A program made the position numbers and the translations under genes. From sequence record LC768462.1: a DNA stretch of 64,000 nt, one strand, 5' to 3'. Below the pieces are notes generated by a model. That model saw only the letters and a program-made list of their open reading frames with translations. It ran no database searches and was not told the origin of the DNA. Shown here in pieces: positions 39,380-44,383 of the stretch. Origin of the DNA: Escherichia phage phiEc_1. The first letter of the stretch is position 1, and each line of letters begins with the position of its first letter.

Positions 39380-40693
39380 ATGATTGTTATCCCGATTAAC
39401 CGAATTGAAGATAAGGTTGCTCAACAACCCGATATTACTGTTGGTCGTCACTTCATTGAACAATTAATTGACAACAACTTGATTCCAGACGGTATTTGTC
39501 CTATCATTACTGGTGGGGCTATTCGTGATGCTGTGCTTAATAATATAGCCCCACATGACATTGATATCTTTATTGTCAGAGGACAAACACCAAGAACTCA
39601 AAATACTTTCGTCCCAACTGAGCGATGGCAAATGCTTGGACGGGAGATTGAAAGTAACGTGAAGGAATGGCTTGAGTCACAAGATATTGAGTATTCATCT
39701 CTTCTTGCTGAGGCTACAAACGAGTCCTATGCTGGGAGTTCTCAATTAACATTCACTGATATTATTGAATTTCAGTGGAATGGAACCCGCATTCAATTCA
39801 TGTTTAACTATCCTACTTCTATTGAAGAGGTGTTGGATAATTTCCCTATGATGTGCCGTGGTGCGATGACTATTGATAACTTGTTCATGACCAACCATGG
39901 GTATTTGGCTATGACCGCCCCTTGTCCAGTGGTTGTTTCTAGTCGTGAAATCCGATATGTCCACAAGAAGTGGCCCAATTCTCAGGTATTGAGGTTTTCA
40001 TCTCCATCGGTTGCTCATCAATACATGGCCCAAACTCGATATCTTCCCACACCTCAACCAGTTAGCCAACTAGTCAACGAACGAGGTCAGGTTGCTCTTA
40101 TTGAGGATACAACAAGTGCTCAATATTGTGTTAACCGAGACATGAGTCTATTCTTTGGAATCCCTTATGAAGAGATTCTGTTAATGTCAAGCGTTCACGG
40201 GTCTGGTCAGATTCGTGCGTATTGGTCTGAAGGGTTAACAAACCTAACGACTAACACGGGTGGTGATCTGCTTGGTCGAGAAGAGGAGCCTAACCGACAC
40301 AATGCAATTGAAGGGGTGTTTGTAGCCCCTGCAATGCGTCGAGCACAAGAGTCACGAAGAGTAAGCCCTACTCGTAGAACATCTTTTGAAGAAGCTCTTG
40401 GTATCACAAGTGATTCTATGGAGAGATGGATGGCTAGTCCTTCTCGTGGTCGACCAAACGGCTTAACTATTAGCGCACGTCAGTTCTCTGGTCAGGGTTT
40501 TGCTGTTGGTGATATCAACGCCCCTTCTCGTGTTATCTGGACTGATGAAGGTATGGAACAAGATTTAGGAGATAGTCTCGCTGATCGCTTTATTGCTAAC
40601 AACCCTGAAGTATTAGAACCTCAAACCCGTACAGTTCGGTTTGCCGATGAAGCGGGTCGTGGAATCTCTTTTGACATGGAAACAAATAACTAA
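39380..40693 (+). CDS. nucleotidyltransferase (CCA-adding/poly(A) polymerase-like head domain)
   Basis: ITGGAIRDAVLN....HDIDIF matches GGxxRD...DxD; C-terminal 300 aa unrecognised. Confidence 0.45.
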   Translation: MIVIPINRIEDKVAQQPDITVGRHFIEQLIDNNLIPDGICPIITGGAIRDAVLNNIAPHDIDIFIVRGQTPRTQNTFVPTERWQMLGREIESNVKEWLESQDIEYSSLLAEATNESYAGSSQLTFTDIIEFQWNGTRIQFMFNYPTSIEEVLDNFPMMCRGAMTIDNLFMTNHGYLAMTAPCPVVVSSREIRYVHKKWPNSQVLRFSSPSVAHQYMAQTRYLPTPQPVSQLVNERGQVALIEDTTSAQYCVNRDMSLFFGIPYEEILLMSSVHGSGQIRAYWSEGLTNLTTNTGGDLLGREEEPNRHNAIEGVFVAPAMRRAQESRRVSPTRRTSFEEALGITSDSMERWMASPSRGRPNGLTISARQFSGQGFAVGDINAPSRVIWTDEGMEQDLGDSLADRFIANNPEVLEPQTRTVRFADEAGRGISFDMETNN

Positions 40694-40702
40694 GGAATAA
40701 GA

Positions 40703-41236
40703 ATGAGTTTACTAGGAAGTATTGAACTGCATGATGTAATTGACAATGGCTATCTGGATGCGGAGCATAAGTATGTTAACGCTGCTAGTGTGGATATCCG
40801 TATTGGTGATACTATCCTTGTTGAAGAACAGGCTGATGGCATCGTTGATATTGATGCGAAAGAGAATCTTCAGTGGAAGGAAGTAAAGATTCCTGAAGAG
40901 GGTTTGGTTATCACTCCGGGTCAGTTCTTCTTGGCTCACTCTATGGAGGAGTTTAATCTTCCAGATAACATCTCAAGTCTGTTTGTTCTGCGTTCGTCTA
41001 TGGCTCGTTGTGGTTTGAACCACCTTCACGCCGGTTGGGCAGATGCAGGATTTAATAGTAGTAAGCTGACATTTGAATTCCATAACGTAACCAAGCACCA
41101 CAGCTTACGAGTTCGTGCTGGTATGCGTGTTGGTCAGATGGTTATGTTTGAGCACTCTCATGCAGGGGAACATTCCTACGCAGTGAAGGGTCGTTATAAT
41201 AACTCTGAAGGTGTGGTTGCATCTAAAGGTGTGTAA
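40703..41236 (+). CDS. dCTP deaminase/dUTPase-family protein
   Basis: dUTPase-superfamily motifs (VDIRIGD..., RSSMARCGL). Confidence 0.6.
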   Translation: MSLLGSIELHDVIDNGYLDAEHKYVNAASVDIRIGDTILVEEQADGIVDIDAKENLQWKEVKIPEEGLVITPGQFFLAHSMEEFNLPDNISSLFVLRSSMARCGLNHLHAGWADAGFNSSKLTFEFHNVTKHHSLRVRAGMRVGQMVMFEHSHAGEHSYAVKGRYNNSEGVVASKGV

Positions 41237-41434
41237 ATGAAAAAGTGGATTGTTCGTGTACATGATAACACGACTGGAGAGTTAGTAGCTGTAGATTTTG
41301 TTAAGACTCGAGAACACGCACGTAGGGTCAAAAATCAATACAAGTCTACTTTTAGACTTAACAAGGTTACAATTGGAAAAGCTATTGTGAATAGCGAAGG
41401 TGCTTTTTTTGCCAACAGTAAGGTTTATTATTAA
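41237..41434 (+). CDS. small protein, tandem paralog 1 of 3
   Basis: 65 aa ending KVYY. Confidence 0.5.
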   Translation: MKKWIVRVHDNTTGELVAVDFVKTREHARRVKNQYKSTFRLNKVTIGKAIVNSEGAFFANSKVYY

Positions 41435-41643
41435 TGAGACCGATCACCATGAGACAATTTTGGTTAGCAAAGATTAAGTGGGCATCAGGTGGCATGACTA
41501 TGACTGCACTACCCACTCGCCAACAAGCTCGAGATTTTAAAAAGACTATGCTTACTGGTGACGTGGTTAATAGTATCAGTATCCATAAGGCCAAGGAGTA
41601 TTCTTCTGGTCGTGTTTATATCAGCGGAAAGGTACATTACTAA
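41434..41643 (+). CDS. small protein, tandem paralog 2 of 3
   Basis: 69 aa ending KVHY. Confidence 0.5.
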   Translation: MRPITMRQFWLAKIKWASGGMTMTALPTRQQARDFKKTMLTGDVVNSISIHKAKEYSSGRVYISGKVHY

Positions 41644-41852
41644 TGAAAAAGATGTGGGCTATTCATGTTGTTTGGGATCTTGAGCAACACATGAGAAAAG
41701 ATAACATCAAATTGTTTGATACTCGCAAAGAGGCTCGTATTGCTAAGAAACAGTTGAAGACTCTGGGCACAATAGTAAAAAGCGCTGACATACATCGCTG
41801 GTATGAAGACCCTAACACTGGTTCTTTTATGTCTAAAGTAATTTACTACTGA
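41643..41852 (+). CDS. small protein, tandem paralog 3 of 3
   Basis: 69 aa ending KVIYY. Confidence 0.5.
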   Translation: MKKMWAIHVVWDLEQHMRKDNIKLFDTRKEARIAKKQLKTLGTIVKSADIHRWYEDPNTGSFMSKVIYY

Positions 41853-41924: not shown

Positions 41925-42254
41925 ATGTTAGATTTGAGTAAAGTGGCCCCGCCCACTGAAGAGATTACAAAATCCAAGGTGATGCAACAGTTTTATCATC
42001 GTGATATGCTTGGTCGCTTTATCAAGAATCGTGATGTTGTTGCTTGGTCTATTGGTAATCAGGGATATCTGTTGAAGGTTCTTCAGGTTACAGGTTCAAC
42101 TGCTAAGCGAGTTAAGGTGTATGACCCTGAAATGGGGCGTTCTAAGTCAGTAGACCCACAGAACTGCATCGTAATTACCCAGCAGGTAATGGATAATATT
42201 GCACGTAACGTTGCTAACTCAGTTGAACTTGATGGAGAAAACCCAAATGCATAA
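41925..42254 (+). CDS. hypothetical protein
   Basis: 109-aa ORF with SD. Confidence 0.55.
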   Translation: MLDLSKVAPPTEEITKSKVMQQFYHRDMLGRFIKNRDVVAWSIGNQGYLLKVLQVTGSTAKRVKVYDPEMGRSKSVDPQNCIVITQQVMDNIARNVANSVELDGENPNA

Positions 42255-42810
42255 GAATGTCTTTGATTTACCTGAGATTGGTCGTGACAGCTATAGCATG
42301 TTAGACCGGTCTGATCTTTCAATCTCTCGCCTTGAAACAATGCAAGGCATGATTAGTGCAAACAGCCTAGAACACATCCTGAGCTGCTTACAAGCTAACA
42401 TGGAACTCTTGCATATCAAAGCTAAAAACTACCACTGGAACGTCTCTGGTGCAGGATTTCAGGGTGTTCATGGTATGTTTGATGAGCTGGAAGATTACGC
42501 ACGACAGGTAGGAGATCATATTGCTGAACGTATGCGTTACCACTGCGTTAAAGTGGACGCTACAGCAGCTAACTATCTTTCTCATGCTTGGTTCTCAGAG
42601 GGTAATGCTGACCTAGATATGGACGGTATGCTCTCTGATATGTGCATGACCTTGATGTGTATTATTGAGAAGATGGATGAGTTTGATGGTGATTTAGCCA
42701 CCTACCCTGTTGATCAGAGTATGCTTCAAGAAATTAATGAAGGTCTTGGCAAGTATTGCTACTTCGTCAAGAGCAACATGTCCCATTCAAGTGGTGACGT
42801 GTCTTACTAA
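42247..42810 (+). CDS. Dps/ferritin-like protein
   Basis: AKNYHWNVSGAGFQGVHGMFDELEDYARQVGDHIAERM matches Dps core. Confidence 0.7.
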   Translation: MHKNVFDLPEIGRDSYSMLDRSDLSISRLETMQGMISANSLEHILSCLQANMELLHIKAKNYHWNVSGAGFQGVHGMFDELEDYARQVGDHIAERMRYHCVKVDATAANYLSHAWFSEGNADLDMDGMLSDMCMTLMCIIEKMDEFDGDLATYPVDQSMLQEINEGLGKYCYFVKSNMSHSSGDVSY

Positions 42811-43059
42811 AACCTCCGCCCTGTCTCCTAACCCGAGGTGGGGCGAACTTATTTATAAGGATATAGATATATGTTATCAGCAATCGTATGGGGTATTTGG
42901 GCTATCTTTATTGGTGGTGGTATTTATTGGGCTTCTGGTAAGCTTATTGAAGAAACCCCTGATAAGAAAGGTGAGATTCAAACAGCATCAACTATCATGG
43001 TTATCGTAGCTGTTGTTATCCCATTCCTGCTTCACCTCCTGACTGCATAAGGATTTGAT

Positions 43060-43245
43060 ATGATTTCACTGATTGTGTGGGCCGTGTGGTCGTTAATAGT
43101 TGGTACTGTTATATATAAAGCTCGAAATTTAGCAATTAAAGAAAACCCAGCAGAAGAGGATGTTAAAGCTATCAAGCTAGGTAGTGTTGTTCTGGTACAT
43201 TTTGCTATAACACTACCTCTTGTTATTATTCTTTGTATGCTATAA
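43060..43245 (+). CDS. small membrane protein (paralog of unlisted ORF ~42871-43050)
   Basis: two hydrophobic helices; shared IVW..W....G..IY motif. Confidence 0.45.
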   Translation: MISLIVWAVWSLIVGTVIYKARNLAIKENPAEEDVKAIKLGSVVLVHFAITLPLVIILCML

Positions 43246-43435: not shown

Positions 43436-43711
43436 ATGAGTAAAGTAATTAAGTTTTATAGTGATCAGTGTGCTCCATGTAAAGCAATGGCTCCTACCTT
43501 TGAGAAGGTTGTTAAGGAGTTTGATGTAGAAGTGGAAGAGATTAACATCCTTGAAGGTGATGGTCGTGAGCAAGCTGTTAAGTATGGTGTACGAAGTATC
43601 CCTGCTTTCGTTGTGCCTGACCGTAACAGTGGTGCACACTATAGCCTCTCTGGTATGCAGACTGAAGCAAACCTGAAAGCATTTTTGGACACAGCCCTGA
43701 GCAATAAGTAA
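43436..43711 (+). CDS. thioredoxin/glutaredoxin-like protein
   Basis: CAPC active site, RSIPAFVV. Confidence 0.65.
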   Translation: MSKVIKFYSDQCAPCKAMAPTFEKVVKEFDVEVEEINILEGDGREQAVKYGVRSIPAFVVPDRNSGAHYSLSGMQTEANLKAFLDTALSNK

Positions 43712-43726
43712 TAAGGATATTCACGG

Positions 43727-44383
43727 ATGAATGAACAACTACAAGCAACATTAATCGAAGCTATGGGAAGTGATCGTAGCGTAGTAAACGCAGCTCGAGT
43801 TTCCTTTGGCGTAACCCGTGAAGGTGATTTAAATGAACGTGATGAACGTCTCATCAACTTCCTCGCAAGAGAGAAGCATGTTACCCCATTCCGACACCCG
43901 CAAGTCAGTTTCCGATGCAAAGCACCTATTGCAATTGCGAGACAGTTGGGCAAGCATCAGGTTGGATTCTCGTGGAACGAAATGTCCCGGCGGTATAAAG
44001 ATGGAGCAGTTGAAGTCTTCATCCCTAAAGAGATTTTTGCGAGACCTTCGGACCTCCATGCAGGTTCAGGGATTCAACTCATCGACGGAGAGCGAGCTGA
44101 AGCATTAATGCTGATTAACGATGCATATGAAGCTTCTCTAGCAGCATATGACAAGTTGATTGAATTTATTGCACCAGAGCAAGCTCGATTTGTTCTTCCT
44201 CAGGGGATGATCACTGAGTGGGTGTGGACCGGTTCTTTGTATGGCTGGTTTGAGTTGTGTCGTCAGCGACTCTCCTCTCACGCTCAATATGAAGTTCGAG
44301 TGTTTGCTAAATCTGTAGACGAAGAGATAGCTAAGATCTACCCAATCTCGTGGGCAGCTCTGAAGAAAACATTGGAGATTTAA
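43727..44383 (+). CDS. thyX: flavin-dependent thymidylate synthase ThyX homolog (variant RHR motif)
   Basis: aligns with ThyX; canonical RHR reads KHQ (43952-43960), SxRY conserved. Confidence 0.75.
   Translation: MNEQLQATLIEAMGSDRSVVNAARVSFGVTREGDLNERDERLINFLAREKHVTPFRHPQVSFRCKAPIAIARQLGKHQVGFSWNEMSRRYKDGAVEVFIPKEIFARPSDLHAGSGIQLIDGERAEALMLINDAYEASLAAYDKLIEFIAPEQARFVLPQGMITEWVWTGSLYGWFELCRQRLSSHAQYEVRVFAKSVDEEIAKIYPISWAALKKTLEI

What the first reader, a model, noticed from the sequence alone, without database searches (positions are those of the whole stretch)
42247..42810. Phage-encoded Dps/ferritin-like protein
Strong match to the Dps core (HWNV.G..F..VH.M.DE.......D.IAER). Dps is a host stress protein that sequesters iron and protects DNA; carriage by a lytic phage is unusual and may protect replicating phage DNA from oxidative damage or alter host nucleoid state.
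Basis: partly seen in the sequence, partly recalled or inferred. Interest (0 to 1): 0.5.

Follow-up and report, generated by a model that had tools for sequence, protein, structure and literature searches.

The report
Known Dps mini-ferritin of kuraviruses
The ORF is a real, strongly conserved Dps-type mini-ferritin gene of a phiEco32-like coliphage, labelled as a Dps family member since 2008; its iron-oxidising site is intact, the usual 'DNA-binding' label has no support in the sequence, and its role in infection has never been tested.

Summary
Observation confirmed. Window 42247-42810 (+) is a 187-aa ORF with a GGAG ribosome-binding site. It matches Pfam Ferritin above the curated cut-off and PHROG 3636 at E 7e-55. 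Its predicted fold superposes on solved Dps dodecamer subunits.

All five ferroxidase ligands (H63, H75, D79, D90, E94) and the adjacent Trp are invariant across distant phage relatives. dN/dS in the core is 0.02-0.04.

The window is a Kuravirus (99.5% identical to phage MN03). The gene is phiEco32 gp67, annotated in GenBank as 'DNA-binding protein, member of the Dps family', so it is already known.

New details from this check:
- It is not a captured host gene. Only a 41-residue stretch aligns with E. coli Dps, there is no match in 5,426 E. coli genomes, and it falls in a separate phage clade.
- It is acidic (pI 4.7, net charge -16) and has no basic tail, so DNA binding is unsupported.
- It is always paired with a small basic beta-barrel protein (gp68) inside the dNTP/replication module.
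- Many records mislabel it 'integrase'.

Most likely it is a middle-gene mini-ferritin that removes Fe2+ and H2O2 during phage DNA synthesis. Mass-spectrometry reports of the protein in virion preparations leave a small chance that it is a particle component.

The parts
42247..42810 (+). Dps-family mini-ferritin gene (orthologue of phiEco32 gp67 / SU10 CDS67), 187 aa plus stop
   Evidence: ORF and RBS; Pfam, PHROG, NCBIfam and PDB matches; 98.9% identical to phiEco32 phi32_67, annotated 'member of the Dps family'; AF2 model plus Foldseek
42234..42237 (+). Shine-Dalgarno GGAG, 9 nt upstream of the ATG
   Evidence: read directly from the sequence
42247..42378 (+). N-terminal extension (residues 1-44). 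It is acidic (1 K, 3 R against 7 D/E) and absent from the Privateer, 7-11 and LAh_6 homologues. It carries a conserved S-x-x-R-L-E/D-x-M motif (R28, L29, M32). The predicted helix 18-37 has low confidence.
   Evidence: dN/dS about 0.16, against 0.02-0.04 for the core
42433..42531 (+). Ferroxidase-centre segment (residues 63-95): H63, W64, H75, D79 on helix A/B and D90, E94 on helix B
   Evidence: aligned to E. coli Dps H51/W52/H63/D67/D78/E82 and Listeria H31/W32/H43/D47/D58/E62 (numbering consistent with the 1dps alignment 56-94 to 44-82); invariant in 11 close and 24 diverse sequences
42661..42723 (+). Acidic C-D turn (residues 139-159, IIEKMDEFDGDLATYPVDQSM), the stretch equivalent to the ferritin-like three-fold iron-entry pore of Dps proteins
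   Evidence: sequence and alignment to the acidic 'DDD'/'GDD' pore segments of E. coli and Listeria Dps; the pore role is an inference
41925..42254 (+). gp68 (109 aa, pI 8.8, PHROG 10984, function unknown). Its stop overlaps the Dps start by 8 nt. It is a conserved upstream partner.
   Evidence: homologues lie directly upstream of Dps in Privateer (37% id, E 5e-16) and LAh_6 (31%, E 2e-18); AF2 gives a helix, a 5-strand SH3/Tudor/KOW-like barrel and a helix, with no significant PDB match
42817..42855 (+). Intrinsic-terminator-like hairpin (11 pairs, 7 G-C) with a T-rich tail, starting 7 nt after the Dps stop. It probably ends the transcription unit.
43436..44383 (+). Context: thioredoxin (43436-43711) and flavin-dependent thymidylate synthase ThyX (43727-44383)
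   Evidence: the same neighbours occur in phiEco32, Privateer and 7-11
40703..41236 (+). Context: dCTP deaminase, upstream member of the same dNTP/replication block

Best explanation
The gene encodes a true Dps-family mini-ferritin made during the middle phase of infection.

Shown here: it has the Dps four-helix bundle with the short BC helix, the complete inter-subunit ferroxidase centre (H63/H75/D79 from one subunit, D90/E94 from its two-fold partner), the flanking Trp, and an acidic C-D turn at the position of the iron-entry pore. All of these are under strong purifying selection.

Inferred: twelve subunits assemble into a hollow shell. The shell takes up Fe2+, oxidises it (preferentially with H2O2) at the ferroxidase centres and stores it as a ferric core. 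This removes both Fenton reagents from the cytoplasm while the phage replicates its DNA and runs its dNTP-synthesis module (dCTP deaminase, ThyX, thioredoxin, PhoH). The shell is acidic and has no basic tail, so protection is chemical (iron and peroxide removal) rather than by coating or condensing DNA. Any contact with DNA would need a partner, and the conserved basic beta-barrel protein gp68 is the obvious candidate.
For: Family, fold and active site.

Selection: dN/dS is 0.018-0.044 in the core, and 57 columns are invariant among relatives down to 47% identity.

Expression: peptides of the SU10 orthologue were found by mass spectrometry (6 peptides, 35.8% coverage), and the gene is classed as a middle gene.

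Context: in four deeply diverged C3-podophage genera the gene sits among dCTP deaminase, thioredoxin, ThyX, PhoH, NrdD/NrdG and the DNA polymerase. Lactobacillus phages also keep their Dps next to DNA-metabolism genes.

Ancient phage clade rather than host capture: 7 clusters at E<1e-30, then a gap before generic Dps. No close relative exists in 185,579 species genomes or in 5,426 E. coli genomes.

No basic tail: pI 4.7 and net charge -16; the N-terminal 44 residues have 1 K and the C-terminus has none.

The same antioxidant reading has been proposed for other phage Dps genes.
Against: No phage Dps has been studied biochemically, as far as the papers searched show. Dodecamer assembly, iron loading and the oxidant used are all inferred from homology. 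Scores against the curated Dps equivalog models are far below cut-off (35 against 114 bits), so it is a divergent member. E. coli already makes its own Dps, Bfr, FtnA and catalases, so the added benefit during a short lytic cycle is not obvious. Kuraviruses encode no ribonucleotide reductase or other evident iron enzyme. Detection of the protein in CsCl-purified Privateer particles is not predicted by a purely cytoplasmic role.
Confidence: 0.6

Rival explanations
1. It is a DNA-binding, DNA-condensing protein, as the database label 'DNA-binding protein' says. It would coat or compact phage or host DNA the way E. coli Dps does in stationary phase.
For: GenBank and PHROG labels. It belongs to the family that contains the nucleoid protein Dps. 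It lies among replication genes. A conserved basic (pI 8.8) SH3/KOW-like partner, gp68, could supply nucleic-acid contacts.
Against: pI is 4.7 and net charge about -16 per subunit. The N-terminal extension has one Lys and is acidic, and the C-terminus has no basic residue. From established knowledge of the family, Dps proteins without a free basic tail (Listeria innocua Dps, Bacillus Dlp-1/2, Agrobacterium Dps) do not bind DNA. The label appears to be carried over from the family name and rests on no experiment.
Confidence: 0.12
2. It is a component or cargo of the virion. Dps shells would be enclosed in, or bound to, the prolate head and either protect the packaged genome or enter the next host with it.
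For: The Privateer homologue was among about ten proteins detected by MS in CsCl-purified particles. The SU10 orthologue was detected in concentrated phage. The gene is core to all C3 (very prolate) podophages. In BFVD, Dps-fold domains occur inside long proteins of uncultured Caudovirales annotated as prohead protease, and a 777-aa double-Dps protein carries a long charged tail.
Against: The SU10 preparation also contained DNA polymerase, sigma factor, thioredoxin and PhoH, so it carried lysate proteins. The SU10 cryo-EM study lists gp20-24 as the head-internal ejection proteins and does not mention gp67, although only major bands were analysed. The gene lies in the middle replication block on the strand opposite the structural genes. 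From general knowledge, an iron-loaded ferritin-type shell is dense and could co-band with phage in CsCl. The Privateer protein lacks the N-terminal extension, so no shared targeting peptide is evident.
Confidence: 0.1
3. It manages iron rather than protecting DNA. It would store or hand over iron for iron-dependent steps of nucleotide synthesis (host NrdAB, or phage NrdD/NrdG in relatives), or withhold iron from the host.
For: It lies adjacent to NrdD/NrdG and an ATP-cone protein in LAh_6, and to an NrdD-like fragment in Privateer. It is embedded in the dNTP module everywhere.
Against: Kuraviruses have no phage ribonucleotide reductase. Dps proteins are not known as iron donors to RNR (general knowledge). 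This reading overlaps mechanistically with the best explanation, since the same shell and chemistry are involved.
Confidence: 0.1
4. It interferes with host Dps, for example by poisoning host dodecamers with tail-less subunits, so that the phage can replicate in Dps-condensed stationary-phase cells.
For: Only the family relationship and the absence of a basic tail.
Against: BLASTP against E. coli Dps aligns only 41 residues, which makes mixed shells unlikely. The fully conserved catalytic site argues for enzymatic use. Homologues occur in phages of very different hosts.
Confidence: 0.03

Closest known systems
phiEco32 gp67 (phi32_67, ABY52868.1) and SU10 CDS67
   Same: Orthologues at 98.9% and 95.7% amino-acid identity, with the same position between gp68 and the thioredoxin/ThyX genes. 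Already annotated 'member of the Dps family' / 'contains a DPS domain'.
   Different: Nothing of substance differs. This window has two copies of the small membrane ORF downstream where phiEco32 has one.
Mycobacterium smegmatis Dps2 (2z90/4m35), B. subtilis MrgA (2chp), B. anthracis Dlp-2 (1jig)
   Same: These are the best sequence and fold matches among solved structures. They share the four-helix bundle, BC helix and ferroxidase ligands.
   Different: Identity is only 23-27%. The phage protein has a 44-residue acidic N-terminal extension with a possible extra helix, and five Cys and 15 Met where cellular Dps have hydrophobic residues. MsDps2 binds DNA through a basic tail, which the phage protein lacks.
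Listeria innocua Dps (1qgh), a non-DNA-binding mini-ferritin
   Same: Acidic shell with no basic tail and identical ferroxidase ligand spacing (0, +12, +16, +27, +31). This is the functional type I propose.
   Different: Weak sequence match (E 1.4e-3). There is no N-terminal extension in Listeria.
E. coli Dps (1dps), the host protein
   Same: Same family and same ligands.
   Different: Only residues 55-95 align by BLASTP. The host protein has the Lys-rich N-terminus (K5, K8, K10; family knowledge) that mediates DNA condensation, and the phage protein has none.
Dps genes of other phages (Privateer, 7-11, GAP52, LAh; Lactobacillus phages; 'Gratiaviridae' gut phages)
   Same: Same PHROG 3636. They lie next to DNA-metabolism genes, and their authors proposed an antioxidant role.
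   Different: Identity is 31-45%. These are shorter (146-156 aa) and lack the kuravirus N-terminal extension.

Membership tests
Dps (DNA protection during starvation) mini-ferritins, ferritin-like superfamily | Significant match to the ferritin-like domain profile | tested here: met
   PF00210 scores 29.3 bits against a gathering score of 24.5. In all 21 close homologues PF00210 is precomputed. A profile search finds 3,021 Dps-like proteins.
Dps mini-ferritins | Four-helix bundle with a short BC helix in the long cross-over loop | tested here: met
   AF2 model, pLDDT 78.6 (84-95 over most of the core): helices 41-65, 72-98, 107-112 (BC), 125-150, 154-176. The top 50 Foldseek PDB hits are all Dps, with rmsd mostly 1.3-3.6 A.
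Dps mini-ferritins | Inter-subunit ferroxidase centre: His, His, Asp on helices A/B plus Asp, Glu on helix B of the two-fold partner, and the adjacent Trp | tested here: met
   H63, H75, D79, D90, E94 and W64 align with E. coli H51, H63, D67, D78, E82 and W52. H63, W64, H75, D90 and E94 are invariant in all 24 diverse sequences. D79 is invariant in the phage clade and replaced by E or Q only in three distant metagenomic sequences.
Dps mini-ferritins | Assembly into a 12-subunit hollow shell with 23 symmetry | not testable with these tools
   Only a monomer could be modelled. This needs SEC-MALS, cryo-EM or a multimer prediction.
Dps mini-ferritins | Ferroxidase activity (H2O2 preferred) and an iron core of up to about 500 Fe | not testable with these tools
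   A biochemical assay is needed. No published assay of any phage Dps was found.
DNA-binding subgroup of Dps (E. coli Dps type) | Flexible Lys/Arg-rich N- or C-terminal tail, or a positively charged shell surface | tested here: not met
   Residues 1-44 have 1 K and 3 R against 7 D/E. The last 7 residues are SSGDVSY. Whole-protein pI is 4.7 and net charge -16. All phage-clade members have pI 4.4-5.8.
NCBIfam equivalogs 'Dps' (NF006975), 'DpsA' (NF041388, NF052461) | Score above the curated equivalog cut-off | tested here: not met
   Scores are 35.1 against 114, 32.8 against 170 and 18.3 against 300 bits. It is a family member but not an equivalog of any curated cellular Dps.
Tyrosine/serine integrases (label given to this gene in many GenBank records) | Integrase catalytic domain | tested here: not met
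   The only Pfam hit is Ferritin. P0004, 82% identical and carrying PF00210, is named 'integrase [Escherichia phage IME267]'. The label is an annotation error.

The most novel reading that the evidence does not exclude
The Dps shell is a genuine component of the C3-type prolate virion. It would be packaged with, or bound to, the genome and carried into the next cell, making the phage head a natural counterpart of encapsulins that enclose ferritin-like cargo. This would explain three things: detection in CsCl-purified Privateer particles, strict conservation in all C3 podophages, and the fusion of Dps domains to head-assembly proteins in other phages.
Probability: 0.1. Interest if true: 0.7.

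Novelty: already known. Interest (0 to 1): 0.22.

Why it matters
As it stands, this is a correct re-discovery of a gene annotated as a Dps family member in the type phage phiEco32.

There are two practical points. First, the propagated labels are misleading. 'DNA-binding protein' has no sequence support. 'Integrase', which many kuravirus records carry for this gene, is plainly wrong and could cause therapeutic phages to be flagged as temperate.

Second, no phage Dps has ever been characterised. Yet this one is a core gene, under strong purifying selection, in a whole lineage of virulent phages, and it is always coupled to the unknown protein gp68 inside the dNTP/replication module. A simple knockout and ferroxidase assay would show whether lytic phages need to control iron and peroxide chemistry during genome replication. 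It would also settle whether the repeated mass-spectrometry detection in particle preparations is real.

Tried and rejected
- The word-indexed homologue search returned only close kuravirus relatives. The exhaustive profile search was needed to see the gap between the phage clade and cellular Dps.
- The phiEco32 genome paper (PMC2587145) is not held, so its virion proteome could not be checked.
- The gp68 fold search gave only generic SH3/Tudor/KOW-like barrels at E > 0.04, so no function could be assigned. Pfam finds nothing for gp68.
- PADLOC has no defence-system family for Dps or gp68.
- Promoter scans were uninformative. Sigma-70-like sites are fewer than in shuffles, and none lies directly upstream of gp68/Dps. 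The kuravirus late motif TAATGTAT is absent from this block.
- PHROG and Pfam scans of long Dps-containing metagenomic proteins did not identify head-protease or scaffold domains; they found only DUF6321 and unknown PHROGs. The 'prohead protease' fusion lead therefore rests on BFVD names alone.
- Host origin is rejected.
- I considered a metal-binding (Cu/thiol) role for the Met/Cys-rich helix C. These residues replace hydrophobic core positions of other Dps proteins and are not conserved outside the kuravirus sub-clade, so there is no evidence for such a role.

Full report
**1. What is at the coordinates**

The + strand carries an ORF from ATG 42247 to the TAA at 42808-42810 (187 aa, 21.2 kDa). 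GGAG lies 9 nt upstream of the ATG. A longer TTG-initiated reading (42199) is listed mechanically. However, every homologue starts at the MH(K/N)N methionine, and so does the phiEco32 annotation.

Its spacing is off by two: there are 9, not 7, residues between 'DE' and 'D.IAER'. ORFs on the opposite strand are short and unremarkable.

**2. Is it a Dps?**

Sequence evidence:
- Pfam Ferritin (PF00210) is hit above the curated threshold, 29.3 against 24.5 bits.
- PHROG 3636 is matched end to end at E 7e-55.
- phmmer against the PDB returns more than 60 distinct Dps chains and essentially nothing else. The best are M. smegmatis Dps2, B. subtilis MrgA and B. anthracis Dlp-2 at E about 1e-9 to 1e-8.

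Structure evidence:
- An AlphaFold2 model (mean pLDDT 78.6, and 84-95 over most of the core) has helices 41-65, 72-98, a short helix 107-112, then 125-150 and 154-176. This is the Dps A-B-(BC)-C-D topology. It also has an extra, low-confidence helix at 18-37.
- Foldseek against the PDB gives only Dps structures in the top 50. TM is 0.76-0.90 normalised to the target, and rmsd is 1.3-2.1 A for the best hits.

Active-site evidence:
- Aligned to E. coli and Listeria innocua Dps, the ferroxidase ligands are all present: H63, H75, D79, D90, E94 and the neighbouring W64. The register is confirmed by the HMMER alignment to 1dps, where query 56-94 maps to chain 44-82.
- The ligands are invariant in 11 kuravirus-type sequences.
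- They are also invariant across all phage-clade members (Privateer, 7-11, LAh_6 and the closest metagenomic relatives) in a 24-sequence alignment. The only change is at D79, which is E or Q in three distant metagenomic sequences.

Selection:
- dN/dS against orthologues is 0.018-0.044 for the core and about 0.16 for the N-terminal 44 residues.

The observation and the family assignment are therefore solid.

**3. What genome is this, and is the gene known?**

The surrounding 3.5 kb is 99.5% identical to Escherichia phage MN03 and more than 92% identical to dozens of kuraviruses. The protein is 98.9% identical to phiEco32 gp67. The GenBank entry for gp67 reads 'DNA-binding protein; member of the Dps family'.

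Published mentions:
- The SU10 paper lists the orthologue (CDS67, 'contains a DPS domain') as a middle gene shared by all five C3-morphotype phages then sequenced. It detected the protein by mass spectrometry with 6 peptides and 35.8% coverage.
- The Privateer paper reports its Dps homologue in CsCl-purified particles and states that the function is unverified.
- Phage Dps genes have also been discussed for Lactobacillus phages and for gut 'Gratiaviridae', with the same antioxidant rationale.

I found no biochemical or genetic study of any phage Dps. The finding is thus already known at the annotation level and uncharacterised at the functional level.

**4. How common, and where from?**

- 138 of 50,697 phage records contain a homologue at E <= 1e-5. 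Of these, 97 are full-length kuravirus-type copies. The rest are C3 podophages of Salmonella, Proteus, Cronobacter and Aeromonas (31-45% identity) plus a few Streptomyces and Synechococcus phages.
- An exhaustive profile search of 1.84 billion representatives finds 7 clusters at E < 1e-30. There is then a gap to ordinary Dps proteins starting at E about 1e-19, with 3,021 hits in all.
- The host's own Dps is only a distant relative. phmmer gives E about 0.1, and BLASTP aligns residues 55-95 only.
- The gene has no DNA match in 5,426 complete E. coli genomes.
- There is no close relative in one genome from each of 185,579 prokaryotic species. The best matches are 33-37% identical, in MAGs of distant phyla (Thermokryptus, Bacteroidota, Chloroflexota, Elusimicrobia).
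- GC content equals that of the window, 0.43 against 0.42.

It is therefore an old phage-lineage gene, not a recently captured host stress gene.

**5. Features that bear on mechanism**

(a) Charge. The protein has pI 4.7 and a net charge of -16. The 44-residue N-terminal extension has one Lys and is acidic, and the C-terminus (SSGDVSY) has no basic residue. All phage-clade members are acidic. From established family knowledge, E. coli Dps condenses DNA through Lys5/8/10 of its flexible N-terminus and mycobacterial Dps proteins use basic tails. Tail-less acidic Dps proteins such as Listeria Dps, Dlp-1/2 and Agrobacterium Dps do not bind DNA. The database label 'DNA-binding protein' is therefore not supported.

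(b) Pore. The C-D turn is strongly acidic (EKMDEFDGD...PVDQ), like the three-fold iron-entry pore of other Dps proteins. The pore role is an inference.

(c) N-terminal extension. It is specific to the kuravirus sub-clade and contains a conserved S-x-x-R-L-E/D-x-M motif. Its role is unknown.

(d) Composition. Helix C is unusually rich in Met and Cys (DMCMTLMC). These residues occupy positions that are hydrophobic in other Dps proteins and are not conserved beyond the sub-clade. I regard this as composition, not a metal site.

**6. Neighbourhood**

- The stop of the upstream gene gp68 (41925-42254) overlaps the Dps start by 8 nt.
- gp68 homologues sit immediately upstream of Dps in Privateer (37% identity) and Aeromonas phage LAh_6 (31%) as well. 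In 7-11 the homologue lies about 1.3 kb upstream, beside the thioredoxin gene.
- gp68 is basic (pI 8.8) and has no Pfam family.
- Its model is a helix, a five-stranded SH3/Tudor/KOW-like barrel and a helix. No PDB match is significant.
- A strong terminator-like hairpin follows the Dps stop at 42817-42845.
- On either side are dCTP deaminase, thioredoxin, ThyX, PhoH, primase/helicase and the DNA polymerase.
- In relatives the neighbours include NrdD/NrdG and an ATP-cone protein.
- Kuraviruses themselves encode no ribonucleotide reductase.
- The structural genes lie on the other strand.

**7. Best explanation and rivals**

The simplest account that fits all the data is a catalytically active, non-DNA-binding mini-ferritin. 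It would be made with the replication and dNTP enzymes and would strip Fe2+ and H2O2 from the cytoplasm while phage DNA is synthesised. What is shown: the fold, the active site, the selection, the expression and the context. What is inferred: the 12-mer shell, the chemistry and the benefit to the phage. From general knowledge, flavin-dependent ThyX can leak H2O2 in air. That would give a local reason for the ThyX-Dps linkage, but I could not test it.

The main alternative with any experimental footing is virion association.
- For: Privateer CsCl particles; SU10 preparations; and BFVD entries in which a Dps fold is part of long proteins named 'prohead protease'.
- Against: the SU10 sample also contained polymerase, sigma factor and other non-structural proteins. 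The SU10 cryo-EM work identifies gp20-24 as the internal proteins without mentioning gp67. A mineralised ferritin-type shell could simply co-band with phage (general knowledge).

DNA binding through gp68, iron hand-over to nucleotide-synthesis enzymes, and interference with host Dps are weaker rivals.

**8. Verdict**

This is a real feature, correctly recognised, but already annotated in the type phage and conceptually anticipated in the literature. Interest is low to moderate. The open points are the lack of any functional test, the conserved gp68 partner and the unexplained presence in particle preparations.

Noticed in passing
window 42247-42810, and GenBank records of IME267, ES17, CHD5UKE1, EcoN5, IMEP8, KM01, E20-1 and others: The Dps gene is labelled 'integrase' in many kuravirus records. 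One example is P0004, 82% identical and carrying PF00210, which is named 'integrase [Escherichia phage IME267]'. The protein has no integrase domain. This is a propagated annotation error that could wrongly flag these virulent phages as temperate.
   Followed up: partly
window 41925-42254 (+): gp68 (109 aa, pI 8.8, PHROG 10984) overlaps the Dps start by 8 nt. It is conserved directly upstream of Dps in Privateer and LAh_6. Its predicted fold is an SH3/Tudor/KOW-like barrel flanked by helices, with no significant structural match. It may be a functional partner of the Dps.
   Followed up: partly
window 41237-41852 (+): Three tandem paralogous small ORFs (65, 69 and 69 aa) all belong to PHROG 4939, of unknown function. 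They correspond to phi32_71/70/69.
   Followed up: no
window 42871-43245 (+): Two tandem paralogous small hydrophobic ORFs (59 and 61 aa, PHROG 9296) lie between Dps and thioredoxin. phiEco32 has a single copy here, so copy number varies among kuraviruses.
   Followed up: no
window 42817-42855 (+): A strong terminator-like hairpin (11 pairs, 7 G-C, T-rich tail) starts 7 nt after the Dps stop. It is one of only two such sites in 6 kb.
   Followed up: no
BFVD entries A0A6J7WPK9, A0A6J7XDU5, A0A6J7WIS1; proteins P0137, P0123: Dps-fold domains occur inside much longer proteins of uncultured Caudovirales. Three are named 'prohead protease' (333-763 aa). One 777-aa protein has two tandem Dps domains and a long charged tail. 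One 406-aa protein is Dps plus DUF6321. This hints that some phages tether Dps to head-assembly or internal proteins.
   Followed up: partly
window 39380-40693 (+): A 437-aa nucleotidyltransferase (PHROG 12715) has a weak PolyA_pol/CCA-adding head-domain match. It lies directly upstream of dCTP deaminase, and its role in a phage replication module is unclear.
   Followed up: no
L002 4398-4694 (Privateer) and L004 4429-4701 (LAh_6): In the distant relatives, the gene immediately downstream of Dps is a ~90-100 aa protein. In Privateer it is annotated as an NrdD-like ribonucleotide reductase fragment, and in LAh_6 as a Zn-ribbon/ATP-cone regulator. This ties Dps to ribonucleotide reduction in those phages. 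I did not test whether the two small proteins are related to each other.
   Followed up: no
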